NCBI GenBank assembly: GCA_018971685.1
Contig: JAGXAG010000006.1
Location: 62-64,061 of the forward strand
Direction: 5' to 3'
DNA length: 64,000 nt
Source of the DNA: Patescibacteria group bacterium
Lineage (GTDB): Bacteria > Patescibacteriota > Minisyncoccia > Phycocordibacterales > PALSA-1337
Below the pieces are notes generated by a model that was not told the origin of the DNA, did not search any database, and saw only the letters and a list, made by a program, of their open reading frames with translations. The translations under genes were made by a program, and so were the position numbers. Every line of letters begins with the position of its first letter. Position 1 is the stretch's first letter. Shown here piece by piece: positions 18,136 to 32,613 of this stretch.

Positions 18136-18166
18136 ATATGGATAGGCCTGCAGTATAATAATTACT

Positions 18167-18781: not shown

Positions 18782-18789
18782 AACACGCC

Positions 18790-19476: not shown

Positions 19477-19479
19477 CCA

Positions 19480-20055
19480 ATGAACCGCAAACCGAAAACA
19501 ACTTATTACGGATTTACTATCGTTGAAACGCTGGTGGCTATCGCTGTGCTCATGATCGCCGTGTCCGGGCCGCTGGTCGTAGCCAACAAAAGCCTGGCGG
19601 CGGCCATATATGCCAAGGACCAGACTACCGCGGCATATCTGGCGCAGGAAGGTATGGAACTTATCAGGAGCGCGAAAGACAACGATATCGCGGCCGGGAA
19701 TGATTGGAATAATACAATAAAGGGCAATAGTACTTGTAAACAGAACGGTTCCACCAATAATCCGACCGAATGTGCGATCGGTGTCGATAGTAGCGGCTAT
19801 ATACAAACCGGGGGTTGCGGTATATTTACGAACAACTGTGTGTTAAAAGTTGGCAAGATTGCATATTCATATTATGACACTCTAGGTAACAACGGCATCT
19901 TTAATACCGCACCTAACTCTATTTTCACCCGTTATTTTTACATAACGCCGATCAGCTCAAACGAAGAACAAGCGACAGTGATAGTCGATTGGAATGAAGG
20001 ATCAGTGCCGAATGAAGTAAAATTTACCACTGAGATTACCAATAGCACGCTATGA
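19480..20055 (+). CDS. Minor pilin/pseudopilin
   Basis: YGFTIVETLVAIAVLMIAVSG. Confidence 0.7.
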   Translation: MNRKPKTTYYGFTIVETLVAIAVLMIAVSGPLVVANKSLAAAIYAKDQTTAAYLAQEGMELIRSAKDNDIAAGNDWNNTIKGNSTCKQNGSTNNPTECAIGVDSSGYIQTGGCGIFTNNCVLKVGKIAYSYYDTLGNNGIFNTAPNSIFTRYFYITPISSNEEQATVIVDWNEGSVPNEVKFTTEITNSTL

Positions 20056-20540
20056 TCTCCATGAACAAAAAAAGGAAACAATCCGGCTACGCTCTCCTCT
20101 TTGCGGTGTTAACCGCCGTACTTGTCATGGGCGTGGCGGCATTCATCTTGGGCGTGGCTAAAAAGCAGTATGCCATTTCAGCCATTGCCCGCGACTCCAT
20201 GTATTCTTTCTACAACGCGGACAGCGCCATTAGCTGTATAGAGCAAAGTTGGAACCCATCCGCTAGTAATCCGAGTGTTACTTGCGACAACAAAATCATA
20301 TCTCCGACGCAATCGCAATCAACGAGCCCGTTATTTTCAGGCAACCCCACAAGATATCAAGGAGCCATAGATTTTGACACTGCAGGGTGCGCATTATTCA
20401 ATATATGGGTCGGTACCGATCCTGTAACTAACAATCCCAAGACCGTCATTGAAACACGCGGTTACAATGTGTGCGGCGGCAATCCTTTGGCGCCTACCGC
20501 GACCGCTGTTGAACGCGCCATCCGCCTGACACAACAGTGA
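20052..20540 (+). CDS. PilX-like minor pilin
   Basis: SGYALLFAVLTAVLVMGVAAFILG resembles the PilX N-terminus. Overlaps the previous gene by 4 nt. Confidence 0.55.
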   Translation: MISMNKKRKQSGYALLFAVLTAVLVMGVAAFILGVAKKQYAISAIARDSMYSFYNADSAISCIEQSWNPSASNPSVTCDNKIISPTQSQSTSPLFSGNPTRYQGAIDFDTAGCALFNIWVGTDPVTNNPKTVIETRGYNVCGGNPLAPTATAVERAIRLTQQ

Positions 20541-20570
20541 CCGTTTTACACCGGTCCGACCGGTGTAAAA

Positions 20571-22838
20571 ATGAATGCCATGCCCAAAAAAGCCCCGAAA
20601 GAGGCGGTAGAACGCCTAAATAAGCTCAAAGAGGCGATAGAGAAGCATCGCTACAACTATTATGTGCTAGACCAAACCGAGGTCTCCGACGCGGCATATG
20701 ATTCGCTGGTACATGAATTGGCGGAAATAGAAGCGGAATATCCGGAATTATTCACGCCTGATTCGCCGTCGCAGAGAGTCGGCGGCGAGCCGTTGCCGGG
20801 ATTCAAGAAGGTCAGGCACGAAGTGCCGCAATGGTCTTTCAACGACGCTTTCACGCCCGAGGAGATGCGCGATTTCGACGCGCGCGTCAAGCGATTCTTG
20901 GCGCAGGCGGGCGCCAAGGGAAGCGGCGAAGACGCGGGCGCGCCAAGGCCTTCGTACACCTGCGAGCACAAGATCGACGGGCTAAAGATCGTGCTTACTT
21001 ACGAAAACGGAATTTTGAAACAAGCGGCGACCCGGGGCGACGGCACCGTCGGCGAAGATGTGACGGAAAATGTTAAGACGATCAGGTCGGTGCCGTTGCG
21101 GCTCCGTGAACCGATTTCGATGATCGTCGAGGGCGAAGCCTGGATAGCGAAGAGCACGCTCGAATCCTTAAATAAAACGCGGATTGAAAACAGCTTGGAG
21201 CCGTTCGCGAACCCGCGGAATCTGGCGGCGGGATCGATCCGGCAGTTGGATCCGAAGGTGGCGGCTGAGCGTAGACTGGACTCCTTTATTTACGAGATGG
21301 CGACGCCGGCCTCTCCCTCCTCGCCGCGACGAAGTGTCTCACATCCGGCTTCGTCTCGTTCGACACTTGCCGCCGGCTCGACGGTCGAGGCCGGCTTCCC
21401 GCGGACGCAATGTGAAGAATTGGAATTTTTGCGCCGCATGGGATTCAAGGTCAATAAAAACTTCGAGCATTGCAAAGACATCGATGAAGTAATCGCGTAC
21501 TGGGAAAAATGGCGCGGCAAAATGAAAGATCAGGACTACTGGGCGGACGGGATCGTGGTGAAAGTGGATGAACGGAAATATCAAGAGGCGCTGGGCTATA
21601 CCGGCAAGGCGCCGCGATGGGGCATAGCGTTCAAATATCCCGGCGAAGAAGTCACGACCGTCTTGGAAGACATCGTCTTCCAAGTCGGCCGGATGGGCAC
21701 GATCACGCCGGTGGCGGTATTGAAGCCGGTTTCAGTCGGCGGTTCGACGGTTTCAAGGGCGACTCTGCACAATGAAGATGAAATCAAGCGACTGGATGTG
21801 CGTATCGGCGACACGGTCGTATTGCGCAAAGCCGGCGATGTTATCCCGGACATCGTGTCGGTGGTGAAAGAGCTCCGGGTGGCGTCGAGCAAACCGTTCG
21901 TCTGGCCTTCGCGGGTGGCGGCTTGCGGCGGCGACGGCAAGATCGAGCGCGTGCCGGGCGAAGCGGCTTGGCGGTGCGCCGACCGCAATTCATTCGAGCA
22001 ACAAAAAAGAAAACTTTATTATTTCACTTCGAAACACTGCTTCGACATCGACGGCATGGGGCCGAAGGTGATCGATTTGCTCTTGGAGCACGGCCTTATC
22101 TCTTCGCCGGCGGACATTTTCACCTTGAAGAAAGGCGATTTGGAGAATTTGCCGCGCATGGGAACAAAGTCGGCCGATAATTTGATGCGGGCTATCGAGA
22201 AAGCGCGCACGGTTACTTTGCCGCGATTCATCGCTTCGCTCTCTATTCCGCAAGTCGGCGAAGAGACGGCGTATGATCTTGCGCGACATTTCAGTGCCAC
22301 TACATCCCCGTCCGTTGTGGAGGACCTTCGGGACACGCCGTCGGCGCCTGCTGGCGCCGCGGCTGGCTCTCGGCCGCCTTCGCGACCTCCGAGGCGTCCC
22401 TCAGGTCTCTCCACGACGGACAGGGCGACTATCCTGTTGCGTGAAATGTTTGCAGCAGGTGTCGATGATTTTGAGAAAATCAATGGAGTCGGGCCGAAAG
22501 TTGCGCAGTCAATAGTCAGTTGGTTTGGAAATCAGGACAATCGCCGATTGGTCCACAGATTATTGAAGCTTGTGACGATCGAAATCGAGAAAGAAATAAC
22601 AGGATCGGCAAACTCACTCGCCGGCAAATCGTTCGTCTTTACCGGCACATTGCCGACTCTGCAAAGGGAAGAGGCGCAAAACATGGTGCGCCGAAACGGC
22701 GGCAGTGTTTCGAACTCGGTTTCCAAGAAAACTTCGTTTCTGGTCGCCGGCGCCGACGCCGGTTCGAAATTGGACAAAGCGCGCGAATCGGGCGTCAAGG
22801 TTATTTCCGAAGATGAATTCTTGAAAATGATAGGATAA
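20571..22838 (+). CDS. ligA: NAD-dependent DNA ligase LigA, carrying two in-frame repeat-element insertions
   Basis: Adenylation motif KIDGLKIV, OB/Zn/HhH domains, C-terminal BRCT. At 755 aa it is about 80 aa longer than typical LigA. Confidence 0.9.
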   Translation: MNAMPKKAPKEAVERLNKLKEAIEKHRYNYYVLDQTEVSDAAYDSLVHELAEIEAEYPELFTPDSPSQRVGGEPLPGFKKVRHEVPQWSFNDAFTPEEMRDFDARVKRFLAQAGAKGSGEDAGAPRPSYTCEHKIDGLKIVLTYENGILKQAATRGDGTVGEDVTENVKTIRSVPLRLREPISMIVEGEAWIAKSTLESLNKTRIENSLEPFANPRNLAAGSIRQLDPKVAAERRLDSFIYEMATPASPSSPRRSVSHPASSRSTLAAGSTVEAGFPRTQCEELEFLRRMGFKVNKNFEHCKDIDEVIAYWEKWRGKMKDQDYWADGIVVKVDERKYQEALGYTGKAPRWGIAFKYPGEEVTTVLEDIVFQVGRMGTITPVAVLKPVSVGGSTVSRATLHNEDEIKRLDVRIGDTVVLRKAGDVIPDIVSVVKELRVASSKPFVWPSRVAACGGDGKIERVPGEAAWRCADRNSFEQQKRKLYYFTSKHCFDIDGMGPKVIDLLLEHGLISSPADIFTLKKGDLENLPRMGTKSADNLMRAIEKARTVTLPRFIASLSIPQVGEETAYDLARHFSATTSPSVVEDLRDTPSAPAGAAAGSRPPSRPPRRPSGLSTTDRATILLREMFAAGVDDFEKINGVGPKVAQSIVSWFGNQDNRRLVHRLLKLVTIEIEKEITGSANSLAGKSFVFTGTLPTLQREEAQNMVRRNGGSVSNSVSKKTSFLVAGADAGSKLDKARESGVKVISEDEFLKMIG
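21306..21394 (+). repeat. Palindromic repeat element family 1, copy A, inserted in frame in ligA
   Basis: CCTCTCCCTCCTCGCCGCGACGAAGTGTCTCACATCCGGCTTCGTCTCGTTCGACACTTGCCGCCGGCTCGACGGTCGAGG. About 90% identical to the reverse complement of 23150-23250. Encodes the low-complexity peptide TPASPSSPRRSVSHPASSRSTLAAGSTVEAGFP. Confidence 0.7.
22307..22425 (+). repeat. Palindromic repeat element, a different family, also inserted in frame in ligA
   Basis: Imperfect terminal inverted repeats CCCGTCCGTTGTGGAGGA ... TCTCCACGACGGACAGGG. Encodes a roughly 40 aa Pro/Ser/Arg-rich insert between the HhH region and FAAGVDDFEKINGVG. Confidence 0.55.
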
Positions 22839-22854
22839 GTGGTAGAATCGCATC

Positions 22855-23148
22855 ATGATAACCGAAAAAGAACTTGAACGCCTGGCGATTCTGGCCAGAA
22901 TAAAATTGTCGGAAGGCGACAAAAAGTCGCTGGTCAAGGAATTCGACTCGATTTTGGGCTATATCGACCAATTAAAGAAAGTTGAGGTTTCCCTCGACGC
23001 TTCCGCGCGCGTCGGATCCGTCAAGAATGTTACCAGGCCCGATGTTGTCGAAAATACCAGCCGAGAAGATCGTGAGCGATTGTTGAACGAAGCGCCCGAC
23101 CGCCAAGGCGATTTTATTGCTGTGAAAAAAATCTTGAATAACACTTAG
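22855..23148 (+). CDS. gatC: Asp-tRNA(Asn)/Glu-tRNA(Gln) amidotransferase subunit C
   Basis: 97 aa, LERLAILARIKLSEGDKKSL...ILGYIDQLKKV pattern, immediately upstream of gatA. Confidence 0.75.
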   Translation: MITEKELERLAILARIKLSEGDKKSLVKEFDSILGYIDQLKKVEVSLDASARVGSVKNVTRPDVVENTSREDRERLLNEAPDRQGDFIAVKKILNNT

Positions 23149-23149
23149 A

Positions 23150-23250
23150 TTCGCGCCAGCCGCCTCGACCGTCGAGCCGGCGACAAGTGTCGAACGAGGC
23201 GAAGCCGAATGTGAGACGCTTCGTCGCGCCGAGGAGGGAGAGGTGGCGGT
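23150..23250 (-). repeat. Palindromic repeat element family 1, copy B (reverse orientation), in the gatC-gatA spacer
   Basis: The reverse complement matches the ligA copy at 21306-21394 with about 90% identity. Confidence 0.7.
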
Positions 23251-23277
23251 CGAATTACCCAAGTTGAATTAATTAAA

Positions 23278-24726
23278 ATGAAAATCGATTTGAAATCACT
23301 CACGATCAAAAAAGCCTCCGATCACTTGAAAAAAGGCGATTTTTCCGCCGTTGAATTGACCCAAGCATACCATGATGAAATCACCAAGAAGAACAAGGAC
23401 ATTAACGCCTACCTGGAAGTTTTCGACGACGCTCTGGATGCCGCCAAGCAGGCCGATGAAAAGATCGCCGACGCCCGGAAAACCCGCAAGGAAATAAGCC
23501 CGCTTGCCGGCATTCCATGCGGCGTGAAAGACAACATCCTCATAAAAGGCAAAATCGCCAGCGCCGCTTCCAAAATCCTGGAAAATTATCATGCCACTTA
23601 TGACGCCACCGTTATAAAAAAATTAGCCGCGAATGGCGCCGTATTTCTCGGCCGCACCAACATGGATGAATTCGCCATGGGCGGCTCGACCGAGAATTCC
23701 GCTTTCGGCGTGACCAAGAACCCGTATGATTTGGGCAGAGTCGCTGGCGGCTCTTCCGGCGGTTCGGCGGCGGCGGTTGCCATGGACGGCGCTTTGTTCG
23801 CCTTGGGTTCCGATACCGGCGGTTCTATCCGACAGCCGGCGAGCTTTTGCGGCGTGGTCGGATTGAAGCCGACTTACGGCGCGGTTTCCAGGTACGGCGT
23901 CATGGCCATGGGATCTTCGCTCGACCAGATCGGCCCGATCGCAAAAACCGCCTCCGACGCCGAGATCGTATTCAATGCAATCAAGGGCAACGATCTGAAA
24001 GACGGCACGATGATCAAGGATAACACTTATACCAAGAAAAGAATCGGCAAAAACAAGCCGGTTATAGGCGTACCGCGGCATTTTCTAGCCGGCGACGGCA
24101 TAGACCATGAAGTGTTAAAGGCGTTCAATGAAGCCGTTGATTTATTCAAGGCCAAAGGATATGAGATGAAAGAGATAAAACTGCCGAATATTTCCTATGC
24201 GCTCATGGTCTACTACATCATCATGCCGGCGGAAGTGTCGTCGAATTTGGCCAGGTTCGATGGCGTGAAATACGGCTTGCGCAAAAACGGCAAAGACGGC
24301 ATTGACGATTATTTTGAAACGAGGCGCGTCGGTTTCGGCCGGGAAGTGATACGCCGCATTCTGCTCGGGACTTATGTGCTGTCGTCCGGTTATTACGACG
24401 CCTACTACAATCGCGCCAACGCGGTGCGTCGGATGATTACCGGCGATTTCCTGAAAGCGTTCGAATCGGTTGACGCGATCGCCATGCCGACCGCACCCTC
24501 TCCGGCTTTCAAGATCGGCGAGAAGGCCAGCGACCCGGTTGCCATGTATCTGGAAGATATTTTTACGGTTACCGCCAATCTGACAGGCTTGCCGGCCATT
24601 TCGATCCCGTGCGGCTTCGCGGAAAACAGCGGGAAAAAATTACCGGTGGGCTTGCAGCTCACCGCGCGCCACGGCGACGAGTCGACGCTGTTTGAAACCG
24701 GCAAAGACTTTTTGGGCGAGTCGTGA
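23278..24726 (+). CDS. gatA: Glutamyl-tRNA(Gln) amidotransferase subunit A
   Basis: Amidase signature GGSSGGSAAAVA, Ser-cisSer-Lys triad context, 482 aa. Confidence 0.9.
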   Translation: MKIDLKSLTIKKASDHLKKGDFSAVELTQAYHDEITKKNKDINAYLEVFDDALDAAKQADEKIADARKTRKEISPLAGIPCGVKDNILIKGKIASAASKILENYHATYDATVIKKLAANGAVFLGRTNMDEFAMGGSTENSAFGVTKNPYDLGRVAGGSSGGSAAAVAMDGALFALGSDTGGSIRQPASFCGVVGLKPTYGAVSRYGVMAMGSSLDQIGPIAKTASDAEIVFNAIKGNDLKDGTMIKDNTYTKKRIGKNKPVIGVPRHFLAGDGIDHEVLKAFNEAVDLFKAKGYEMKEIKLPNISYALMVYYIIMPAEVSSNLARFDGVKYGLRKNGKDGIDDYFETRRVGFGREVIRRILLGTYVLSSGYYDAYYNRANAVRRMITGDFLKAFESVDAIAMPTAPSPAFKIGEKASDPVAMYLEDIFTVTANLTGLPAISIPCGFAENSGKKLPVGLQLTARHGDESTLFETGKDFLGES

Positions 24727-24756
24727 TCGCGCGCCTGCCGCGCGCGAACGATTTTT
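24727..24756 (+). terminator. GC-rich hairpin after gatA
   Basis: TCGCGCGC-ctgcc-GCGCGCGA followed by ACGATTTTTT. Confidence 0.5.
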
Positions 24757-24765
24757 TGCTATAAT
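24757..24765 (+). promoter_or_regulatory. Extended -10 promoter TGCTATAAT, abutting a start codon (candidate leaderless mRNA)
   Basis: TTTTTTGCTATAATATGgtcATG. The -10 ends one nucleotide before ATG 24766, and a second ATG lies at 24772. Confidence 0.45.
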
Positions 24766-25359
24766 ATGGTCATGCAACCTGCACTCGAGATCCCATACAT
24801 CGATTTCGGTTCATTCTTCAAGTCGATCGGCTCAGCCACCGTTGATTTCTATCCGCATTTAATCCAAGGCATAAAGGATGTAGCCGGCATACTGATAGGC
24901 ATTTCCATACCGTTGTCGCTCTTTTTCCTTATCGTCATCATCTACAGTACCGAGCAATTGAAGCGCATACGCAAGAAAGAGGCCGAAGCTTTCGACCTCA
25001 AGGTCGTGCCCGCATATGAAAAGACCGAAGGCGGCGATCCCGAAACCGCCAAACGCTGGCGGGACATTGTCGAGCACATTTCTTCGAACAACTCCAACGA
25101 TTGGCGTCAAGCTCTGATCGATGCCGACATTATTCTCGATCAGACGCTTACCAAAATGGGCTATCAAGGGCAAACCGTCGGCGACAAACTTCAGCGCGTG
25201 GCCAAAGGGGACTTCAATACGATCGACGACGCCTGGAAGGCGCACAAAGTCAGGAATCAGATCGCGCACGAGGGCTCCGGTTTCGAGCTCAATCACCACG
25301 AAGCCAAAAAAGCGTTCGACGCGTACCGCCGAGTGTTCGAGGAGTTTTATTACATTTAA
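24766..25359 (+). CDS. Hypothetical membrane protein
   Basis: One strong TM segment (ILIGISIPLSLFFLIVIIY), no recognisable motifs. Confidence 0.5.
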   Translation: MVMQPALEIPYIDFGSFFKSIGSATVDFYPHLIQGIKDVAGILIGISIPLSLFFLIVIIYSTEQLKRIRKKEAEAFDLKVVPAYEKTEGGDPETAKRWRDIVEHISSNNSNDWRQALIDADIILDQTLTKMGYQGQTVGDKLQRVAKGDFNTIDDAWKAHKVRNQIAHEGSGFELNHHEAKKAFDAYRRVFEEFYYI

Positions 25360-25386
25360 CGAGGACTAACCTCGAAGTTCTGCTTG

Positions 25387-25458
25387 TTGCGGGGGCCGGA
25401 ATCGAACCGGCAATCTTCAGGTTATGAGCCTGACGAGCTACCGTTACTCTACCCCGCG
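25387..25458 (-). tRNA. tRNA-Met (anticodon CAT) with a C1:A72 mismatch, possibly the initiator tRNA
   Basis: Cloverleaf CGCGGGG-TA-GAGT...anticodon loop CTCATAA...T-arm GCCGG-TTCGATT-CCGGC-CCCCGCA-A. No encoded CCA. Confidence 0.7.
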
Positions 25459-25549
25459 ATAATTACCAATAGTATTGCACACATGTCTAATCGGCGCAAT
25501 ATGTGATGTGAACATGACTCGAACCATGGTATACTACTAATTATACAAT

Positions 25550-26260
25550 ATGTCGAAGTTCGAATTAAAGCCTGAAGTCATCAAGCTGAGAAAGTCTGGC
25601 AAAAGTATTTTTGATATATCTAAAGCAATGAGAATATCCAAAAGTACCGCATCCATATGGTGCAGGAATATCGTAATGACCGTTTCTCAGAGAAATAATC
25701 TTATCGATAGAATGATAAAAAGCGGTCATGCCGGTCGTATCAAGGGGGCGGAAGCCAATAGAAATAAGAAATATATAGTGCAAGAGGAGGCAAAGGTGTG
25801 GGCGAATAAAACAGTATCGCAGATATCTTTGCGCGACAGATTGATAGCTGGACTCGCTCTGTATTGGGCAGAAGGTAGCAAAGCGGATTCCACTTTTGGA
25901 TTCGTCTTTGTAAACTCTGATCCCGTTATGGTCAGATTCATGTTAGATTGGCTTGTCGAGATCATGGATGTGCCAAAAGAGCAGATTACCGCCGCGGTGT
26001 CCATAAATATGATGCACAAGTCAAGAGATAAAGAGGTTTTGAATTTTTGGTCGCATCTGCTAGACTTGCCTTTAAGCTCCTTTTCCAAGACATTTTTTGC
26101 TTCCTCAGTGCGACGAAAGATATATGCAAATCACTCCAGACATTTCGGTGTGCTAAGATTGAGCGTCAGGAAAAGCAGTCGGTTGAAATATAAGGTAATT
26201 GAGATGATAAATGTGTTAAAAGCCGGTGTAGCTCAGGTGGTTAGAGCGAACGCTTCATAA
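25550..26260 (+). CDS. HTH-containing hypothetical protein whose last 13 codons are read from the downstream tRNA gene
   Basis: N-terminal HTH (LRKSGKSIFDISKAMRISKSTASIW) and a LAGLIDADG-reminiscent GLALYWAEGSK. The stop TAA is the tRNA anticodon loop CATAA. Confidence 0.5.
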   Translation: MSKFELKPEVIKLRKSGKSIFDISKAMRISKSTASIWCRNIVMTVSQRNNLIDRMIKSGHAGRIKGAEANRNKKYIVQEEAKVWANKTVSQISLRDRLIAGLALYWAEGSKADSTFGFVFVNSDPVMVRFMLDWLVEIMDVPKEQITAAVSINMMHKSRDKEVLNFWSHLLDLPLSSFSKTFFASSVRRKIYANHSRHFGVLRLSVRKSSRLKYKVIEMINVLKAGVAQVVRANAS

Positions 26261-26295
26261 GCGTTAGGTCCCTGGTTCAAGTCCAGGCACCGGCA
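26222..26295 (+). tRNA. tRNA with anticodon CAT, either elongator Met or lysidine-dependent Ile2
   Basis: GCCGGTG...anticodon loop TTCATAA...T-arm GGTCCCTGGTTCAAGTCCAGG, which resembles the Ile2 T-arm. Confidence 0.7.
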
Positions 26296-26418
26296 CAAGG
26301 TCCTGTGCTTATGGGCTTCGCATACAACAGTCACATATAATGCTGGTACGAAACAGGCCCGCCCTTTTCTTGTTTTTTATAGAATTTTTGATAAACTGAT
26401 TTTGTCCGATCTTTTTAT

Positions 26419-26493
26419 GCGCCCGTGGTGTAGCCTGGCTAACACGTTCCCCTGTCACGGGAAAGATCGTGGGTTCAAATCCCATCGGGCGCG
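26419..26493 (+). tRNA. tRNA-Asp (GTC)
   Basis: Anticodon loop CTGTCAC, acceptor GCGCCCG/CGGGCGC, discriminator G. Confidence 0.8.
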
Positions 26494-26514
26494 CAGTTCG
26501 TTTAAAATTCAGTT

Positions 26515-26587
26515 GCCAATGTAGCTCAGTTGGTAGAGCAGCCCCATGGTAAGGGGCAGGTCGCCAGTTCAATTCTGGCCATTGGCT
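26515..26587 (+). tRNA. tRNA-Thr (GGT), CCA encoded
   Basis: Anticodon loop ATGGTAA, acceptor GCCAATG/CATTGGC, followed by TCCA. Confidence 0.75.
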
Positions 26588-26614
26588 CCAGAATATGCGC
26601 GAAGTCGCAGACGC

Positions 26615-26687
26615 GCCAAAGTAGCTCAGTTGGTAGAGCACCGCTTTCGTAAAGCGGGGGTCGTGGGTTCAAGCCCCACCTTTGGCT
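26615..26687 (+). tRNA. tRNA-Thr (CGT), CCA encoded
   Basis: Anticodon loop TTCGTAA, acceptor GCCAAAG/CTTTGGC, followed by TCCA. Confidence 0.75.
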
Positions 26688-26700
26688 CCAAGGCAAATTT

Positions 26701-27666
26701 ATGGACAAAGAAAAAACACAACAGAAGATCGCCGAACTCGAGAACGCCATGAATGCGCCGGATTTTTGGGCGGACAAGGCGAAGGCGCAGGAGGCCATAC
26801 GGGAGTTGAAGAAATTGAAAGAGGAACTCGAAGGCGCGGGGAAATATGACAGGGGGGACGCCATATTGTCGATCCTTTCCGGCGCCGGCGGCGACGATGC
26901 CGAAGATTTCTCCGCCATGCTCGCACGCATGTACCGCAAGTATTGCGAGTCAAACGGTTGGAGTTGGAATATTGTTCACACCAATGAAAATGACCATGGC
27001 GGTTACAGGAACATCACTGTTGAAATAAGCGGTGGTCCGATCGTGGTCAGACCGGCCCAAGGCTCGGTCGGTAAGGATTCAAATCACGAAAATTTGAATG
27101 ACAATACAGCCGTGAAAACCGGCCCATACGGAGTTTTGAAGAACGAATCCGGAGTACATCGGCTGGTTCGGATTTCGCCGTTTAACGCCAATGAAAAAAG
27201 GCACACTTCATTCTCGCTGGTGGAAATATTGCCGAAATTCGAGAAAACTTCCGAGGGCGACATCGTGATACCGGAAAGCGATATCGAAGTGTCGATCGCC
27301 AAGTCCGGCGGTCCCGGCGGACAGAATGTCAACAAGCGCGAAACCGCCGTGCGCCTTTTGCACAAGCCGACCGGCATTTCCATACATGTTACTTCCGAAC
27401 GGTCGCAGGCCCAGAATAAAGAAAAGGCAATGGCGATCTTGCGCGCCAAGCTGTGGAAAAAGGCAGAAGATGACAGAGTTGCCAAGGAGCGCGGCATGCA
27501 GATCTCCTCGACCACTTTGATCGAATGGGGCAATCAGATACGGTCGTATGTTTTACATCCTTATAAGATGGTGAAAGACCACAGAACCGATCATGAGACT
27601 TCGCAGGTGGATAAAGTCTTGGATGGGGATATTCAAGGATTTATTGAGGCTGAATCACAGTTGTAA
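26701..27666 (+). CDS. prfB: Peptide chain release factor 2 with no programmed +1 frameshift site
   Basis: SPF tripeptide (RISPFNAN), GGQ motif ([10 protein letters not shown]). Begins 14 nt after a tRNA with no room for the CTT TGA frameshift cassette. Confidence 0.85.
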
Positions 27667-27667
27667 A

Positions 27668-27769
27668 ATCCCTTGCTCTTTTGCTTCGAATACTCTCGTT
27701 TCGTAAACCCATCATCCTGCTCCGCTAAGGCTTGCTCCGCGAGGTATTCTCAGCAACGAGCAAGGGATT
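27668..27769 (+). promoter_or_regulatory. Structured intergenic RNA element between prfB and ftsE
   Basis: 12-bp terminal inverted repeat AATCCCTTGCTC ... GAGCAAGGGATT enclosing about 78 nt with nested stems. Followed by TTCAATTG as in the island leaders. Confidence 0.4.
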
Positions 27770-27781
27770 TTCAATTGTGCT

Positions 27782-28474
27782 ATGATTAAACCGATGATTT
27801 ATTACGACAAAGTCACCAAAGTTTATCCGGACAAATCAATTGCACTAGAGGAAGTCACTTTTGGGGTCGAGCCCAAGGAATTTGTGACGATAGTCGGACA
27901 TTCGGGCGCGGGCAAAACTACTCTGATGAAACTTTTGATCGCCGAAGAGAGGCCGAGCGGCGGCGCCGTCTTCTTCGAATCGAGCAATATACACCGTTTG
28001 GGCAAGCGCGACATGAGCAAGATACGCCGCCGGATAGGCACCATATTCCAGGATTACCGGCTGATACCGACTAGGACCGTCTATGAGAATATCTCTTTTG
28101 CCATGGAAGCGGCCGGGCGGGGAGACGGTGAAATCGCCGCCGATGTGCCGCATGTGCTCGAACTGGTCAATCTCGGGCACAAGATATGGAATTTTCCACG
28201 CGAATTGTCGGGCGGCGAACGGCAGAGGGTCGCTATCGCGCGCGCCATTGTCAATCAGCCGGATATCGTGATCGCCGATGAGCCGACCGGCAACCTCGAT
28301 CCCGAAAACACCTTTGAAATAGTCAGGATTTTGCGTAAAATTAACGAATTGGGCACGACCGTATTGCTGACGACGCACAATAAAGGAGTGGTGGATACGG
28401 TCGGCGGCAGGATTATTACGATGGAGAGAGGAAGGGTTGTGAAAGACGATAAAAATGGGAGATATGTTTTGTAG
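27782..28474 (+). CDS. ftsE: Cell division ABC transporter ATP-binding protein FtsE
   Basis: Walker A GHSGAGKTT, signature LSGGERQRVAIARA, Walker B IVIADEPTGNLD. Confidence 0.9.
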   Translation: MIKPMIYYDKVTKVYPDKSIALEEVTFGVEPKEFVTIVGHSGAGKTTLMKLLIAEERPSGGAVFFESSNIHRLGKRDMSKIRRRIGTIFQDYRLIPTRTVYENISFAMEAAGRGDGEIAADVPHVLELVNLGHKIWNFPRELSGGERQRVAIARAIVNQPDIVIADEPTGNLDPENTFEIVRILRKINELGTTVLLTTHNKGVVDTVGGRIITMERGRVVKDDKNGRYVL

Positions 28475-28479
28475 TTTGT

Positions 28480-28499
28480 CATTCCCGCGAAAGCGGGAA
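28480..28499 (+). promoter_or_regulatory. Perfect 8-bp hairpin in the ftsE-ftsX spacer
   Basis: ATTCCCGC-gaaa-GCGGGAAT. Confidence 0.35.
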
Positions 28500-28525
28500 T
28501 CCAGAATAAAAAACATTGCGATGTT

Positions 28526-29494
28526 ATGATCAAACCTATGATTTTCACCACATTCAAAAGAATAACCAAGACGGGCTTCGTCAACTTCTGGCGCAACGGA
28601 TTCCTGTCATTCGCGGCGATCGTGGTCATCACGCTGTCGCTGTGCGCCTTCGGCGGACTTTTGTTCGCCAGCGCGTTCGGACGATCGCTCATCGCCGATG
28701 TCAAAGACAAAGTGGATATCAATGTGTATTTTACGCTTTCGACGCCGGAGTCGAACATTCTGGCTTTGCAAAGCGATTTGAACGGCTTGCCGGAAGTCGC
28801 CAGCACCACCTATATATCGAGCGATCAGGCGCTTGCGTCATTCAAGGACAAGTGGCAGGACAACGCGCTCATCATGCAAGGGCTGGATGAAATCGGCAGC
28901 AATCCATTCCCGGCGTCGATCAATATCAAAGCCAAAGATCCGGGGCAGTACGGCGCGATCGCGGATTATCTGACGAGCAAAAATCCGACCGATTCTTCGG
29001 GCACGCCGATCATCGAAAAAGTCAATTACGCGCAAAACAAGCTTATCATTGATCGTTTGAGCAAAATAATTCCGGCGGTAGAGCAAGCGGGGGCGGTTTT
29101 GGCGATCATTCTGGTTCTGGTGGCGATGATCGTGGTCTTCAACACGATCCGGCTGATCGTCTATACCAGCAAAGACGAGATTGCAGTCATGAAGCTGGTC
29201 GGCGCGAGCAATGTGTTCGTGCGCGGGCCGCTGGTTGTCTCGGGCATCATGTATGGCGTCATTTCCGGGATTATCACGCTCGTCCTCATGGCGGCTTTCG
29301 CCTATTGGAGCGACGCCCTCATCTTGCGTTTGGCGGGCGTCGACGTGGCTTCCAATTTCGAGCTGGTCGTGAACCTTCTATCCAACTATTTTGTGCGCAA
29401 TTTCACGCAGATATTCCTGATCGTCATGGGCGCCGGAATTATTCTCGGCGGAGTGTCGAGTTATATTGCGGCCAGGAGGTATTTGAGAGTATAA
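28526..29494 (+). CDS. ftsX: Cell division permease FtsX
   Basis: Four TM segments, a large extracytoplasmic loop, C-terminal FtsX motif. Downstream of ftsE. Confidence 0.85.
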   Translation: MIKPMIFTTFKRITKTGFVNFWRNGFLSFAAIVVITLSLCAFGGLLFASAFGRSLIADVKDKVDINVYFTLSTPESNILALQSDLNGLPEVASTTYISSDQALASFKDKWQDNALIMQGLDEIGSNPFPASINIKAKDPGQYGAIADYLTSKNPTDSSGTPIIEKVNYAQNKLIIDRLSKIIPAVEQAGAVLAIILVLVAMIVVFNTIRLIVYTSKDEIAVMKLVGASNVFVRGPLVVSGIMYGVISGIITLVLMAAFAYWSDALILRLAGVDVASNFELVVNLLSNYFVRNFTQIFLIVMGAGIILGGVSSYIAARRYLRV

Positions 29495-29546
29495 AAACCG
29501 CCGGACGATCGGTCGTCCGGCGCGACAGGTGACGCTTGTCATCAGA

Positions 29547-30164
29547 TCATCGCGGCAATTTCATGCCGCCCATTACCGCGTACATGAACGGTTGGGCGTC
29601 GTATCTGTGTATGGGCACCCAATCGAAGTAGATTGTTTTGACGCCGGCTTGCACTTCTTTGTATCCTTCATGTCGATAAAGAAATTTCGGCACCACACAG
29701 ACAAAGAAGTATCTTTGGCGGAAAGTCCTTAGGTGCGGATATGACCGGGTACCTCCGGTGATCACCGGATCACAGCCGATCGCGGCCATCGAGTAACCAC
29801 CTTTCCTGAAGTCGTCATTGAGTTCTTCGGCCAGTGCCCGGTGCGCGGCTTCTTCCGGTTTTTCTCCCGGCATTAATTTTTCGCTGACACTGGTGTCACG
29901 GCGTATTTTTCTTACCCGGCCGTCATTAAAGACTTGCCGGGTTTCGCGGAGGAAGTGCAAAGTCTGATCAGACAACGGATAGTAAACATAAATCGCGGCC
30001 ACCTTGATGCATCTGACCAAAAAGCCGTTTACGAACCGGAATACGGCTTCACCGGCGTTCACTTCCTTGAGCAGGTGCTCGACCTTTTTGGCTTCGCCGC
30101 GTCCCCAAGAATCGATAGGGATGCGGTGTTCCACTAGCAGTTTTTCCAATTGTTCAATGTTCAT
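29547..30164 (-). CDS. Hypothetical protein with a NUDIX-box-like motif
   Basis: GEKPEEAAHRALAEELN approximates GX5EX7REUXEEXGU. Divergent from pyrG. Confidence 0.45.
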   Translation of the reverse strand: MNIEQLEKLLVEHRIPIDSWGRGEAKKVEHLLKEVNAGEAVFRFVNGFLVRCIKVAAIYVYYPLSDQTLHFLRETRQVFNDGRVRKIRRDTSVSEKLMPGEKPEEAAHRALAEELNDDFRKGGYSMAAIGCDPVITGGTRSYPHLRTFRQRYFFVCVVPKFLYRHEGYKEVQAGVKTIYFDWVPIHRYDAQPFMYAVMGGMKLPR

Positions 30165-30240
30165 AATTTATCTTACCCTGACACAATTCACGGAAAATAG
30201 CAATATTGGAATTTTCCTCGGGGTTTACTACAATGCAGGC

Positions 30241-32037
30241 ATGGCAATACGCGCCCTAAAGAATCACCACAAGTATATCTTCGTGATCGGCGGAGTGATG
30301 TCGGGCGTGGGCAAAGGCATAGCGACATCATCGATCGGCACGCTGCTTACCGCGAAAGGGTATCGCGTCAATCTGGTCAAAGTCGATCCATACTTGAATG
30401 TTGACGCCGGTACCATGAATCCCACCGAGCACGGCGAGGTTTTCGTATTGAATTCCGGATTGGAGACCGACCAGGATATGGGCAATTACGAAAGATTCCT
30501 CGGCAGGGATTTGACGGCGGACGATTATATTACGAGCGGCATGGTCTATAAGCATGTCATAGAGAAAGAGCGCGCTTTGGAGTTCGGCGGCAAATGCGTG
30601 GAGGCGATCCCGCATATCCGCGATGAAATAGTGCACCGGTTCGAACATTCCGCCAAAGTCAATAAGTCTGACATTTCGATCATCGAGATCGGCGGCACGA
30701 TCGGCGATTACCAGAATGTCATGTTTATCGAAGCCGCGAGGGTGCTTAAGATGCGCCATCCGAACGATGTTTTGTTCATTATGGTTTCGTATCTGCCGAC
30801 GCCGGGCAAACTGGGTGAAATGAAATCGCGGCCGACCCAGAACGCCGCGCGCCAGCTGGCGGGTTACGGCATCAATACCGATTTTATCATCGCGCGCGCG
30901 GAAAGCCCACTCGACCATAAGAGGAAGGAGAAAATCGCGGTCTCTTGCAATATTCCGTGCGAGCGGGTGATATCGGCGCCGGACATAGAGAGCATTTACG
31001 ATGTGCCGGCGAATTTCGAGAAAGATAAGCTCGGCATCTTGCTTCTGGACGCGCTCGGCCTGAAATCAAAAAAGCCGGACAAATCATTCGAGGCTTGGAA
31101 AAGAATGGCGCGGGGGATCAAGAACCATTCGAACCGTGAGGTGAATATTGCGATCGTGGGAAAATATTTCAATACCGGAGATTTTATTTTGTCGGATGCA
31201 TACCTGTCTGTGCTGGAGGCGATCAAATTCTCGGCCTATGAGGCCGGAGTGAAAGCGGTTATCCATACGGTGAATTCGAGGGACTTCGAGGGAAATGATG
31301 TCGGGAGGCCTCTCCCTCCTCGGCGCGACGAAGTGTCTCACATTCGATCCGCCCATCCGACACCCGTTGCCGCCTCGACGGGAGAGGCGCAGGCAGCCGG
31401 TTTCGAGGTACTCGATAAGTATGACGGCATTATAGTGCCGGGCGGATTCGGCGAGTCGGGAATTGAAGGCAAATTGAATGTGATCAAGTACGCACGCGAG
31501 AACAAAATACCGTATTTTGGACTGTGTTACGGCATGCAGCTCATGACTATAGAATATGCCAGGAATGTTTTGGGCCTGAATGAGGCGCATACGGCGGAAA
31601 TAAACCCACGAAGCCCCCATCTTATCATAGATATCATGCCGGACCAGAAGAAAAAACTGGCGGAAGGCAATTACGGCGGATCGATGCGTCTGGGATTGTA
31701 TCCGGCAAAATTGGCGAAAGATACGATCGCGCAAGAAGCGTATTCATATTTCCAAGGCAAGCGGTTGCCGAAGCCGACGGCAATGATCAAAGAGCGGCAC
31801 AGGCATCGTTATGAAGTCAATCCCAAGTACATCGAAAGGCTGGAGAAAGGCGGCTTAGTATTCTCGGGCTGTTCACCTGACGGCCGTTTGATGGAGATCG
31901 CTGAATTACCGCGCGAAGTCCACCCGTTTTTCCTGGGCACGCAATTTCATCCCGAATTTTTGGCGCGGCCTTTGCAACCGCATCCGCTATTCACCGCGTT
32001 TGTAAAAGCGGCAAAGGTCAGGCTCGGCGGCCGATGA
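30241..32037 (+). CDS. pyrG: CTP synthase PyrG, carrying an in-frame repeat-element insertion
   Basis: N-terminal synthase domain YIFVIGGVMSGVGKGI, C-terminal glutamine amidotransferase (GLCYGMQ). The track ORF from 30004 is an upstream extension. Confidence 0.9.
   Translation: MAIRALKNHHKYIFVIGGVMSGVGKGIATSSIGTLLTAKGYRVNLVKVDPYLNVDAGTMNPTEHGEVFVLNSGLETDQDMGNYERFLGRDLTADDYITSGMVYKHVIEKERALEFGGKCVEAIPHIRDEIVHRFEHSAKVNKSDISIIEIGGTIGDYQNVMFIEAARVLKMRHPNDVLFIMVSYLPTPGKLGEMKSRPTQNAARQLAGYGINTDFIIARAESPLDHKRKEKIAVSCNIPCERVISAPDIESIYDVPANFEKDKLGILLLDALGLKSKKPDKSFEAWKRMARGIKNHSNREVNIAIVGKYFNTGDFILSDAYLSVLEAIKFSAYEAGVKAVIHTVNSRDFEGNDVGRPLPPRRDEVSHIRSAHPTPVAASTGEAQAAGFEVLDKYDGIIVPGGFGESGIEGKLNVIKYARENKIPYFGLCYGMQLMTIEYARNVLGLNEAHTAEINPRSPHLIIDIMPDQKKKLAEGNYGGSMRLGLYPAKLAKDTIAQEAYSYFQGKRLPKPTAMIKERHRHRYEVNPKYIERLEKGGLVFSGCSPDGRLMEIAELPREVHPFFLGTQFHPEFLARPLQPHPLFTAFVKAAKVRLGGR
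31308..31392 (+). repeat. Palindromic repeat element family 1, copy C, inserted in frame in pyrG
   Basis: GCCTCTCCCTCCTCGGCGCGACGAAGTGTCTCACATTCGA...CGCCTCGACGGGAGAGGC. The 5' half is about 95% identical to the ligA copy, with terminal inverted repeats GCCTCTCCC/GGGAGAGGC. Encodes RPLPPRRDEVSHIRSAHPTPVAASTGEAQAAG. Confidence 0.65.
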
Positions 32038-32067
32038 CCGCGCGCAACGAAAAAACCGCCTAATTTT

Positions 32068-32613
32068 TCACTTTTTTCCAGTCAACGGAAAGGTCTTCAA
32101 TACTTTCCACGCGCGGTCTTCGCGGTTTTCTTTTACGAATACGGTAAGATTGTCGAATGAAATTTCAAATTTTGGCGCGGGCGCGGATTGCAGGTGTTTC
32201 CATACAGCTTCGAATTGCTGCGGTTTCAAAAATCGCGCGACGGACATATGGATATGCGGATCAATCTCTTGCGGTGTCAAATTCAGGCCGATATTGCGCA
32301 ATTTGGACTGAGCCTTCTTTATAAAGGATTTGAGTTCGGCCGGCGGCTCTGGCGCGTCGACGAATATTGTGCGCGAATGGAAGCTGTTCCAACCGGAGAG
32401 AGCGAGCGGTATCGCCGGCGCCTCGGCGGCCGATGAAAGAATCTCATCAATGGCGTCGGCGTTCGGCTGGTCAAAAGGAGATTTTACGGTTATGTGCGGC
32501 GGCACGATGGCCGACACATCTTCCACGCCAAATCTGGCCGAAAGATCGGCACAAGTGGCCTTATAATATTCCGCCGCTTCGCCCCTGATGATGTTTCCGA
32601 CGAAAAAACGCAT
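32068..32613 (-). CDS. 2H phosphoesterase superfamily protein (LigT/ThpR-like)
   Basis: Two H-x-T/S-x motifs (PHITVK and PHIHMSVA). Confidence 0.55.
   Translation of the reverse strand: MRFFVGNIIRGEAAEYYKATCADLSARFGVEDVSAIVPPHITVKSPFDQPNADAIDEILSSAAEAPAIPLALSGWNSFHSRTIFVDAPEPPAELKSFIKKAQSKLRNIGLNLTPQEIDPHIHMSVARFLKPQQFEAVWKHLQSAPAPKFEISFDNLTVFVKENREDRAWKVLKTFPLTGKK

What the first reader, a model, noticed from the sequence alone, without database searches (positions are those of the whole stretch)
21306..31392. Dispersed ~90-bp palindromic repeat family: in frame in ligA and pyrG, reverse-orientation in the gatC-gatA spacer
Three copies are 90-95% identical over the shared core CCTCTCCCTCCTCG(C/G)CGCGACGAAGTGTCTCACAT(C/T)CG...CTCGACGG...GAGG: 21306-21394 in ligA, 23150-23250 reverse complement between gatC and gatA, and 31308-31392 in pyrG. 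The ligA and pyrG copies sit in different reading frames, yet both are translated as Pro/Ser/Arg-rich inserts (...SPSSPRRSVSHPASS... and ...PLPPRRDEVSHIRSAHP...). The element carries internal hairpins (GACGAAG/CTTCGTC and CTCGAC-GG-TCGAG) and short inverted termini (GCCTCTCCC/GGGAGAGGC in the pyrG copy). This points to a mobile or formerly mobile selfish repeat that inserts into essential housekeeping genes without inactivating them.
Basis: seen in the sequence. Interest (0 to 1): 0.85.

Follow-up and report, generated by a model that had tools for sequence, protein, structure and literature searches.

The report
Hairpin repeat inserted in-frame in essential genes
A roughly 90-base hairpin-forming repeat sits in frame inside the DNA ligase and CTP synthase genes, and between gatC and gatA, of an uncultured Patescibacteria (CPR) bacterium; the same repeat is found in frame in many other housekeeping genes of related genomes, so it behaves like the Rickettsia palindromic elements but in a different phylum.

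Summary
Three copies of one repeat lie at 21306-21394 (+, in ligA), 23149-23255 (-, gatC-gatA spacer) and 31305-31396 (+, in pyrG). The ligA and gatC-gatA copies are 94% identical. The pyrG copy is 81-84% identical to the other two overall and 95-97% over its first 40 nt. None is expected by chance. Both genic copies are insertions relative to solved LigA and PyrG structures, and they are read in different frames.

The organism is a Patescibacteria/Paceibacterota MAG. The same family occurs in at least 7 related MAGs and in groundwater and other metagenome contigs. There it lies in frame, in both orientations, in SecA, MetRS, PNPase, FtsK, Dus, a methyltransferase, a glycosyltransferase, and again in LigA and PyrG at the same loops.

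The architecture is two invariant modules, CTCCCTCCTCGGCGCGACGAAGTG and CACTTGTCGCCGCCT(G)CGACGGTCG. They flank a genome-specific apical hairpin and are closed by a variable, covarying basal stem.

Stop codons are strongly depleted: all three forward frames are open in 96% of copies against 22% of shuffles. AlphaFold models the LigA insert as a disordered loop. No transposase, Rfam match or phage copy was found.

Verdict: a non-autonomous, selfish hairpin repeat that is tolerated because it can be translated. It works like an RPE but is a new family in a new phylum. Translation and the mobilising enzyme are inferred, not shown.

The parts
21306..21394 (+). Family A copy 1, in frame in ligA (peptide PASPSSPRRSVSHPASSRSTLAAGSTVEAG). 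Basal stem CCGGCCT/AGGCCGG.
   Evidence: AF2 models residues 244-270 with pLDDT<50 and as coil.
23149..23255 (-). Family A copy 2, in reverse orientation. It fills the gatC-gatA spacer from the base after the gatC stop (TAG 23146-23148) to 22 nt before the gatA ATG.
   Evidence: The mRNA-sense fold is -55.4 kcal/mol, z -4.2. No terminator-like site. The orthologous spacer is empty in L053 and holds another hairpin family in L052.
31305..31396 (+). Family A copy 3, in frame in pyrG (peptide RPLPPRRDEVSHIRSAHPTPVAASTGEA). The middle has diverged. Termini GCCTCTCCC/GGGAGAGGC.
   Evidence: The same site is occupied by the same family, in another frame, in L029.
20571..22838 (+). ligA (NAD-dependent DNA ligase), the host gene. 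755 codons from the first ATG; the NCBI protein starts at codon 4.
22855..23148 (+). gatC
23278..24726 (+). gatA
30238..32037 (+). pyrG (CTP synthase), the host gene. The likely start is the ATG at 30238.
22297..22442 (+). Family B: an unrelated 146-nt hairpin insert, in frame in the HhH region of ligA. It shows the same phenomenon with a different family.
   Evidence: (-88.7 kcal/mol, z -7.3)
49927..50107 (+). Family C: a hairpin with perfect 39-bp arms, in frame in lepA (49344-51365). It shows the same phenomenon with a third family.
   Evidence: (z -13.6)

Best explanation
This is a family of small, non-coding, non-autonomous repeats restricted so far to a clade of Patescibacteria (Paceibacterota-like CPR bacteria).

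**Structure.** Each copy is a long imperfect palindrome of about 85-125 bp. Two invariant, asymmetric sequence modules flank a genome-specific apical hairpin. A variable basal stem closes the element.

**Spread.** Copies spread, or are homogenised, within a genome at the DNA level. The agent is presumably a trans-acting enzyme that recognises the conserved modules and the hairpin. That enzyme has not been identified.

**Persistence in genes.** The sequence has almost no stop codons: all three forward frames and usually two reverse frames are open. A copy that lands in a permissive surface loop of a protein therefore does not truncate it. It is read through as a Pro/Ser/Arg/Ala-rich disordered loop and persists, even in single-copy essential genes (ligA, pyrG, secA, metG, pnp, ftsK). 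Copies elsewhere survive only in intergenic spacers, which they often fill completely.

**Decay.** Copies are lost by deletion across the hairpin between short direct repeats, which leaves footprints.

**Shown:** the repeat family, its architecture, hairpin covariation, in-frame occupancy of many genes, stop-codon depletion, polymorphism at orthologous sites, and the disordered-loop prediction.

**Inferred:** translation of the insert, mobility by transposition, and the nature of the mobilising enzyme.
For: 1. **Real repeat.** 3 window copies against 0 expected. 28 exact-core hits in 7 Patescibacteria MAGs, about 10 of them at contig ends, plus 18 metagenome hits. A profile finds 59 hits in 391 kb of fetched DNA.

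2. **Architecture.** In 22 non-redundant copies the modules CTCCCTCCTCG-GCGCGACGAAGTG and CACTTGTCGCCGC-CT(G)CGACGGTCG are invariant or nearly invariant. The apical region differs by genome, and the basal stem varies with compensation. 97.8% of cells are paired, against 27-63% when the partners are slid. 19 cells carry changes on both sides, against 5.3 in shuffles (0 of 500 shuffles reach this).

3. **In-frame occupancy.** Besides window ligA and pyrG, copies lie in frame in PyrG (same site, other frame), LigA (same site), SecA, FtsK and a GT4 glycosyltransferase in forward orientation, and in MetRS, PNPase, a SAM methyltransferase and Dus in reverse orientation.

4. **Stop depletion.** All 3 forward frames are open in 96% of 27 copies, against 22% of composition-matched shuffles. 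The mean number of open frames is 5.26, against 3.39.

5. **Permissive loops.** The inserts fall where E. coli LigA and M. tuberculosis PyrG have short loops. AF2 gives pLDDT<50 and no secondary structure for LigA residues 244-270, between confidently modelled elements. The same LigA loops carry unrelated inserts in 33 and 34 of 120 homologues.

6. **Turnover.** The gatC-gatA spacer holds family A in the window, another hairpin family in L052, and nothing in L053. At the ligA site there is a full element in P0003 and a footprint, CCGCCT|GCGACGGTCGAGGCGG, in P0008. The two LigA proteins are about 90% identical outside the insert.

7. **Genome-specific copies at orthologous sites.** Copies at the ligA and pyrG sites carry their own genome's apical subfamily, and they are read in different frames. 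The 24-nt module is identical across genomes although host synonymous sites have diverged.

8. **Not an assembly artefact.** The identical LigA is encoded in independent NCBI and Logan assemblies.
Against: - No transposase-like domain was found in any of 66 window ORFs. No longer, autonomous version was found in 391 kb of related loci.
- There are no target-site duplications and no conserved terminal inverted repeats.
- No clean empty genic site was seen. The 'absent' state at ligA is a footprint, so deletion is documented but insertion is not.
- The ligA-site copies belong to one LigA clade on an NJ tree. A single ancient insertion followed by gene conversion could explain them without ongoing transposition.
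- Translation is not demonstrated.
- The window copies fold only moderately better than shuffles (z -0.4 to -4.2).
Confidence: 0.72

Rival explanations
1. Ancient, vertically inherited inserts that are no longer mobile. In this reading one or a few insertions occurred in an ancestor of the clade. Today's similarity among copies comes from gene conversion between paralogous copies, plus hairpin-templated correction, not from transposition.
For: - The LigA proteins that carry the element or its footprint at the ligA site (P0001, P0106, P0002, P0003, P0008) are neighbours on the NJ tree.
- The same pyrG site is occupied in two genomes whose PyrG proteins are about 78% identical.
- No transposase or target-site duplication was found.
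- Deletion footprints show decay.
Against: - Copies lie in many unrelated genes and spacers that differ between genomes.
- The orthologous gatC-gatA spacer is empty in one relative and holds a different family in another.
- Within-genome copies are 94% identical, while host synonymous sites between genomes are far more diverged.
- At the shared ligA and pyrG sites the reading frames and the basal stems differ between genomes.
Confidence: 0.15
2. A host-used structured RNA or cis-regulatory hairpin, for example an mRNA stabiliser, an RNase processing site or a translational pause signal. In this reading it is kept by selection at the RNA level.
For: - The sequence modules are invariant across genomes, beyond what neutral evolution would give.
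- The hairpin covaries.
- Intergenic copies fill whole spacers inside operons such as gatC-gatA.
- The mRNA-sense fold of the spacer copy is significant, z -4.2.
Against: - The element occurs in both orientations relative to the host gene, so the transcribed RNA differs, and it sits in unrelated genes and loops.
- No Rfam family matches even at E<=1.
- No terminator-like tail is present.
- Covariation is equally expected for a DNA palindrome.
- Orthologous sites without the element function in relatives.
Confidence: 0.06
3. The insert is not translated. In this reading it is bypassed by the ribosome or excised from the RNA, as with the byp elements of Magnusiomyces mitochondria or the T4 gene 60 gap.
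For: - These are very stable hairpins inside essential genes. Families B and C reach -89 and -144 kcal/mol.
- GC-rich mobile hairpins in organelles are known to be bypassed (own knowledge, not checked here).
Against: - Every genic copy keeps the host frame open on both sides.
- The family is strongly depleted of stop codons. That would be unnecessary if the segment were skipped.
- No ribozyme or intron match was found.
- No take-off or landing codon pairs, or stop codons, were seen at the junctions.
Confidence: 0.04
4. An assembly or binning artefact, in which chimeric MAG contigs join reads at a shared repeat.
For: Repeats often sit at contig ends, so they do disturb assembly.
Against: - The identical 752-aa LigA with both inserts was recovered in independent NCBI and Logan assemblies.
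- The host genes are collinear and homologous on both sides of every genic copy.
Confidence: 0.02

Closest known systems
Rickettsia palindromic elements (RPE; Ogata et al. 2000, as summarised in PMC10969869)
   Same: - Both are small palindromic, non-coding repeats dispersed in a reduced genome.
- A large share of copies lies in frame inside unrelated housekeeping genes, at positions compatible with the protein fold.
- No transposase is known for either.
- Both occur as several families per genome.
   Different: - The phylum differs: Patescibacteria rather than Alphaproteobacteria.
- This element is shorter, about 85-125 bp against about 100-150 bp.
- It is read in at least two forward and two reverse frames, rather than as one conserved peptide per family.
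- The conserved part is an asymmetric internal core, with variable apical and basal stems.
- Sequence similarity to the RPE consensus sequences was not tested.
REP / REPIN elements mobilised by RAYT (Y1) transposases, including the CGTC-tagged REPs of PMC3733652
   Same: - Both are GC-rich imperfect palindromes that form hairpins.
- Both show genome-specific subfamilies.
- Stem changes are compensated in both.
- Many copies carry a 3' tail, GCTGACG, whose reverse complement begins with CGTC.
   Different: - REPs are extragenic by definition and are 20-40 nt per unit.
- No RAYT was found here.
- The two arms are not simple inverted REP units: they differ in the 11-12-nt segments CTCCCTCCTCG and C(T)GCGACGGTCG.
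Bacterial MITEs with in-frame insertions (Coxiella QMITE, intragenic ERIC, Anabaena MITEs; PMC10969869, PMC5896051)
   Same: All are non-autonomous, short, multi-copy elements that fold into hairpins and occasionally form in-frame fusions with host ORFs.
   Different: - No conserved terminal inverted repeats, no target-site duplication and no parent IS were found.
- The fraction of copies in essential genes is much higher.
Mobile GC clusters and byp elements of yeast mitochondria (own knowledge, not checked here)
   Same: These are GC-rich hairpin elements that are richer in G+C than their host genome. They invade protein-coding genes at recurrent sites.
   Different: The byp elements are skipped by the ribosome. 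The elements here keep the frame open and lack stop codons, which points to translation.

Membership tests
RPE-like in-frame palindromic repeats (functional class) | A dispersed multi-copy short repeat with palindromic (hairpin) structure | tested here: met
RPE-like in-frame palindromic repeats (functional class) | Copies lie inside unrelated protein-coding genes without breaking the reading frame | tested here: met
   ligA and pyrG in the window. SecA, MetRS, PNPase, FtsK, GT4, methyltransferase, Dus, PyrG and LigA elsewhere.
RPE-like in-frame palindromic repeats (functional class) | Insert positions are compatible with the protein fold (surface loops) | tested here: met
   Alignment to solved LigA and PyrG structures. 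In the AF2 model the insert has pLDDT<50 and is coil. This was checked for LigA only.
RPE-like in-frame palindromic repeats (functional class) | The insert is translated into the mature protein | not testable with these tools
   Needs proteomics or ribosome profiling. Only open frames and stop-codon depletion were shown.
Rickettsia RPE families proper (RPE-1 to RPE-10) | Sequence homology to an RPE consensus, and occurrence in Rickettsiales | not tested
   No RPE consensus was available in the tools. The host here is Patescibacteria, so membership is not claimed.
MITE | Conserved terminal inverted repeats | tested here: not met
   The termini (basal stem) vary between copies. The conserved sequence is internal and asymmetric.
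MITE | Target-site duplication (direct repeat) flanking each copy | tested here: not met
   No direct repeats flank the copies. The CCGCCT direct repeat seen in some copies is internal to the element and is not general (and the reading).
MITE | A related autonomous IS with a transposase | tested here: inconclusive
   None was found in the window or in 391 kb of loci. Whole genomes were not searched.
REP/REPIN-RAYT | Extragenic location | tested here: not met
   At least 11 copies lie inside ORFs.
REP/REPIN-RAYT | A conserved GTAG or CGTC head next to the palindrome | tested here: inconclusive
   The GCTGACG tail (reverse complement CGTCAGC) is present in many copies but not all. It is absent or altered in the window ligA and pyrG copies.
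REP/REPIN-RAYT | A cognate RAYT (Y1 transposase) gene in the genome | not tested
   Only a 64-kb window and 8-kb loci were available. There was no Y1_Tnp hit among the window ORFs.
Known structured RNA families (Rfam 15) | A match to a covariance model | tested here: not met
   Only tRNAs were found in 20000-33000 at E<=1.

The most novel reading that the evidence does not exclude
The most novel reading is that CPR/Patescibacteria genomes host a whole guild of hairpin repeat families. Families A, B and C are in this window, and many more are visible in LigA homologues. These families would repeatedly re-colonise the same surface loops of essential proteins.

The proposed mechanism acts on hairpins:
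- The elements home to earlier footprints or hairpins.
- The palindrome is extended into neighbouring host codons by templated correction or by inverted duplication of the flank. This is suggested by two family B copies in L055, whose perfect 23-24-bp stems include host LKL/PIS and F-P codons.

If so, these elements would be a main source of the lineage-specific insertions typical of CPR proteins, driven by a mobilisation mechanism not yet described.
Probability: 0.2. Interest if true: 0.8.

Novelty: new member of a known kind. Interest (0 to 1): 0.6.

Why it matters
In-frame colonisation of essential genes by selfish palindromic DNA has been documented at high frequency mainly in Rickettsia. 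Finding the same behaviour, with several families and recurrent hot-spot loops, in ultra-small CPR bacteria has several consequences.

- The phenomenon looks like a general outcome of reduced genomes with little intergenic space, not a rickettsial oddity.
- It offers a concrete source for the many unexplained insertions in CPR proteins.
- It explains some MAG fragmentation, because repeats lie at contig ends.
- It warns annotators that Pro/Ser/Arg-rich segments in CPR housekeeping proteins may be repeat-derived.
- The invariant asymmetric core is a defined handle for finding the enzyme that moves these elements.

I found no paper describing this in the searchable library. That is not proof that it is unpublished.

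Tried and rejected
- **Rfam scan** of 20-33 kb at E<=1: only tRNAs.
- **Exact-protein look-up of GatA:** not on record.
- **Viral contig scan** for the core: 0 hits, so there is no evidence of a phage vector.
- **Census of host proteins by peptide search.** A concatenated 205-aa peptide query gave only 3 hits at E<=1, because short low-complexity matches cannot reach significance in 5.8 billion sequences. It still added a Peptidase_M50 host.
- **Search for an autonomous version,** meaning a 5' and a 3' module separated by a gene. All 'orphan' modules were contig-end truncations, 3'-module variants or chance hits in high-GC genomes (L012, L020, L041).
- **Target-site-duplication model,** based on the CCGCCT repeat at the P0003/P0008 site. 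Rejected because the repeat is absent from other subfamilies, and because the short form is not a dispersed element (0 other copies against 31 full copies in 391 kb).
- **Terminator or promoter role** for the spacer copy: no such site.
- **Split genes** around intergenic copies: the copies sit between separate ORFs.
- **Pfam scan of all 66 window ORFs** for a transposase or recombinase: none.
- **DNA for P0018:** not available.

Full report
**1. The observation**

- A 20-nt core matches three times with at most 1 mismatch. The expected number in dinucleotide-preserving shuffles is 0.00.
- The repeat finder reports the ligA and gatC-gatA copies as 91-nt arms that are 90% complementary. It finds the pyrG copy 95-97% identical to the others over its first 38-40 nt.
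- Local alignments give 93.9% identity (ligA vs gatC-gatA, 82 nt), 80.7% (ligA vs pyrG) and 84.3% (gatC-gatA vs pyrG). The pyrG copy is therefore the same family with a decayed middle.
- A profile built from 27 copies finds exactly these three in the 64-kb window, with E-values from 1e-19 to 1e-22.

**2. Gene context**

NCBIfam confirms LigA, GatC, GatA and PyrG.
- The ligA copy is read as ...ASPSSPRRSVSHPASSRSTLAAGSTVEAG... The pyrG copy is read one frame over, as ...RPLPPRRDEVSHIRSAHPTPVAASTGEA....
- Against solved structures, both are insertions. E. coli LigA aligns up to query residue 243 and resumes at 276. M. tuberculosis PyrG aligns to query 343 and resumes at 384, while only about 9 chain residues pass.
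- The third copy, in reverse orientation, fills the gatC-gatA spacer from the base after the gatC stop codon. It has no terminator-like tail.
- In each window copy five of six frames lack stop codons.

**3. Organism and distribution**

The LigA protein is identical to an NCBI protein from a 'Patescibacteria group bacterium'. Its nearest relatives, at no more than 67% identity, are Paceibacterota/Parcubacteria. The same gene with both of its inserts is present in GCA_028870795.1 and in an independent Logan assembly, which excludes an assembly artefact.

A 22-nt core pattern gives 30 hits among one genome per species (GTDB):
- 28 hits fall in seven Patescibacteria MAGs: CAYHFU01 9, CAIKAN01 8, CAYHQT01 5, JAMDBV01 3, and JBAZBL01, CAZKSQ01 and CAZIUH01 1 each.
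- 2 hits are chance matches in high-GC Actinobacteria that lack the rest of the element.

The metagenome scan adds 19 loci, mostly from the same groundwater and lake samples. About ten hits lie within 50 nt of a contig end, as expected for a dispersed repeat that breaks assemblies. No copy is in the viral collection.

**4. Anatomy**

Twenty-two non-redundant copies align as follows:
- a basal stem 5' arm of 3-12 nt, variable in sequence
- CTCCCTCCTCG
- GCGCGACGAAGTG
- an apical hairpin of 20-40 nt, specific to each genome or subfamily
- CACTTGTCGCCGC
- CT(G)CGACGGTCG
- the basal stem 3' arm
- in many copies, a tail GCTGACG(CGATTC), which partly pairs with sequence further upstream

RNAalifold folds the whole element as one long hairpin.
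- On that structure 97.8% of cells are standard pairs, against 27-63% when the partners are slid by 1-3 columns.
- 19 cells carry changes on both sides, against 5.3 in shuffles (0 of 500 shuffles reach this).
- The compensated changes lie mainly in the basal stem (CG to UA; UA to GC, AU or CG).
- One lies in the ligA copy of the window itself, at columns 24/87, where G-C has become C-G.

The two arms are inverted repeats of each other, except for an 11-12-nt asymmetric segment on each side: CTCCCTCCTCG against C(T)GCGACGGTCG. The termini are therefore not conserved and the core is. That is unlike a classical MITE. No direct repeats flank the copies.

Covariation of this kind is expected for a DNA palindrome as well as for an RNA. 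Because copies occur in both orientations within genes, I read it as a DNA-level property.

**5. In-frame occupancy elsewhere**

Among complete copies in the fetched loci, the element lies inside long ORFs in both orientations. Pfam confirms the hosts (LigA).
- Forward orientation: SecA (inside the wing/scaffold domain), FtsK, a GT4 glycosyltransferase, the PyrG GATase domain and LigA.
- Reverse orientation: MetRS (inside the catalytic domain), PNPase, a SAM methyltransferase and Dus.

At least two forward frames (LPPRRDEV... and SPSSARRSV...) and two reverse frames (...TLRRAEEG, ...HFVAPRRGR) are used.

Stop codons are depleted.
- All three forward frames are open in 96% of 27 copies, against 22% of composition-matched shuffles.
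- The mean number of open frames is 5.26, against 3.39.
- The copies are related, so this is not an independent-sample statistic. It does hold across subfamilies with different apical sequences.

Copies that do not span an ORF lie tightly between separate ORFs and often fill the spacer.

**6. Permissive loops and hot spots**

In an alignment of 120 LigA homologues, the loop that holds the family A copy (P0001 residues 247-271) carries an insert of at least 8 aa in 33 sequences. The HhH loop that holds the second window insert (574-619) does so in 34.
- These inserts belong to many unrelated peptide families.
- The same family can occupy different loops in one protein (P0011, P0012, P0021, P0102).
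- An AlphaFold2 model of the window LigA (mean pLDDT 81) gives pLDDT<50 and no secondary structure for residues 244-270, between a confident strand and a confident helix. It gives pLDDT of about 46-55 for 586-611.

The inserts are therefore predicted to be disordered surface loops.

**7. Turnover at orthologous sites**

*gatC-gatA spacer.* It is 129 nt with family A in the window. It is 92 nt with a different perfect hairpin in L052. It is an empty 61 nt in L053.

*ligA loop.*
- L054 (P0003) has a full element with a further small hairpin nested in its 3' module.
- L052 (P0008) has only CCACCGCCT|GCGACGGTCGAGGCGGCTACG. Its LigA is about 90% identical to P0003 outside the insert.
- L053 (P0002) has TCACCT|GCGACGGTCGAGGCTAC.
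- These short forms are what is left if the interior is deleted between the two CCGCCT direct repeats, one in the basal 5' arm and one inside the 3' module.
- The short form is not a dispersed element of its own: it has 0 other copies, against 31 full copies, in 391 kb. I therefore read it as a deletion footprint, not as a pre-insertion target.

*LigA clade.* The LigA proteins that carry the element or a footprint are neighbours on an NJ tree. That fits an old insertion in that clade.

*Signs against simple inheritance.*
- Each orthologous copy carries the apical subfamily of its own genome.
- The 5' junctions put them in different frames.
- The same holds at the pyrG site for the window and L029. 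There the host codons are about 75% identical at the nucleotide level, while the 24-nt module is identical.

This needs either repeated re-insertion at the same loops or gene conversion from paralogous copies. The data do not separate the two.

**8. Other families in the window**

- *Family B.* ligA has a second, unrelated insert at 22297-22442 with a very stable hairpin (-88.7 kcal/mol, z -7.3). Its 64-nt core is 83% identical to two copies in the ligA of another Paceibacterota contig, L055, at two other loops.
- *Family C.* lepA carries a hairpin with perfect 39-bp arms at 49927-50107, in frame just after the GTPase domain.
- *Stems that reach into host codons.* In L055 the two family B copies have perfect 23-24-bp stems. 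The outer 10-12 bp are copy-specific and lie in host codons: TTGAAATTGG, encoding L-K-L, pairs with CCAATTTCAA, encoding P-I-S. GTTGGAAA pairs with TTTCCAAC, which covers the conserved F-P. Uninserted orthologues lack this complementarity.

This suggests that the palindrome grows into its flanks, by hairpin-templated correction or by inverted duplication of the flank at insertion. It may explain the variable, compensated basal stems of family A. I could not test it further.

**9. Mechanism and rivals**

The best-supported reading is a non-autonomous selfish hairpin repeat. Its conserved core is the recognition site of an unidentified trans-acting enzyme. Its lack of stop codons lets copies survive, translated, in permissive loops of essential proteins. 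Hairpin-mediated deletion removes copies.

No transposase-like domain occurs in any of the 66 window ORFs, and no autonomous version was found. Current mobility therefore remains an inference.

The rivals are weighed in the report sections:
- ancient immobile inserts homogenised by gene conversion
- a host-used RNA hairpin
- ribosomal bypass or RNA excision
- an assembly artefact

The first of these is the only serious one.

**10. Comparison and novelty**

Functionally this is the RPE phenomenon (review PMC10969869). It meets the class features that could be tested: a dispersed palindromic repeat, in-frame occupancy of unrelated genes, and fold-compatible positions.

I do not file it as a member of the Rickettsia RPE families, because it is in another phylum and homology was not tested. 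It also fails defining features of two other classes:
- MITE features: conserved terminal inverted repeats and target-site duplication.
- The REP/REPIN feature: extragenic location.

Five literature searches found no description of such elements in CPR/Patescibacteria.

I rate it a new member of a known kind, with some unusual features:
- a conserved asymmetric core with variable stems
- use of several frames and both orientations
- recurrent hot-spot loops shared by several families

Interest: 0.6.

Noticed in passing
window 22297-22442 (in ligA): A second, unrelated GC-rich hairpin insert (family B), in frame in the HhH region of LigA (aa 577-623). Its fold is -88.7 kcal/mol with z -7.3. A 64-nt core is 83% identical to two copies in the ligA of another Paceibacterota contig (L055).
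   Followed up: partly
window 49927-50107 (in lepA, 49344-51365): A third hairpin family (C): perfect 39-bp arms separated by 103 nt, translated in frame as an insert of about 70 aa right after the GTP_EFTU domain. The fold z-score is about -13.6.
   Followed up: partly
L055:1501-3777 (ligA of JGI contig Ga0182027_10068836): Two family B copies sit in one gene. Their perfect 23-24-bp stems extend 10-12 bp into host codons (LKL/PIS, and the conserved F-P). Uninserted orthologues lack this complementarity. The palindrome seems to recruit or rewrite its flanks.
   Followed up: partly
L052:3001-5064 and L053:2549-4591 (ligA of relatives): 30-nt footprints of family A (CCGCCT|GCGACGGTCGAGGCGG) lie at the same LigA loop. 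They fit deletion of the interior between two CCGCCT direct repeats.
   Followed up: yes
L052:5416-5507 (gatC-gatA spacer of a relative): The orthologous spacer holds a different perfect hairpin repeat (GTGTCATCCTCGCGAAAGCGAGGATC...GATCCTCGCTTTCGCGAGGATGACAC). In L053 the spacer is empty.
   Followed up: partly
LigA homologues P0001-P0120 (alignment): Many other repeat-like peptide families recur in the same LigA loops. Examples are 'IPAKAGIQ...LDSRLHGNDR', 'TGYRxQGT...FTLNPV', 'PPLQRGGA...' and 'GRGVSPLxRG'. Sometimes one family occupies two or three loops of one protein.
   Followed up: no
L013 / L039 / L048 and L054 (family A copies): A small extra hairpin (CCTTCG...CGAAGG type) is nested at the same position of the 3' module, between CACTTG and TCGCCGCC, in copies from two different genomes.
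   Followed up: no
window 20880-20965 (ligA aa about 104-125): A further GC-rich segment with a short palindrome (CGAAGACGCGGGCGCGCCAAGGCCTTCG) lies where E. coli LigA has a gap. It may be a remnant of another insert.
   Followed up: no
window 42220-44547: A ribonucleotide reductase-like ORF of 775 aa gives only weak, fragmentary Pfam hits (Ribonuc_red_lgC 29 bits). It may be very divergent or also interrupted.
   Followed up: no
window 11839-20540: A type IV pilus cluster (PilB-like T2SSE, PilC-like T2SSF, prepilin peptidase, several N_methyl pilins) lies directly upstream of ligA. The same pilin-ligA-gatC-gatA order is kept in relatives (L052-L054).
   Followed up: partly
window 25386-26690: A cluster of five tRNA genes: Met (on the minus strand), then Met, Asp, Thr-GGU and Thr-CGU.
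   Followed up: no
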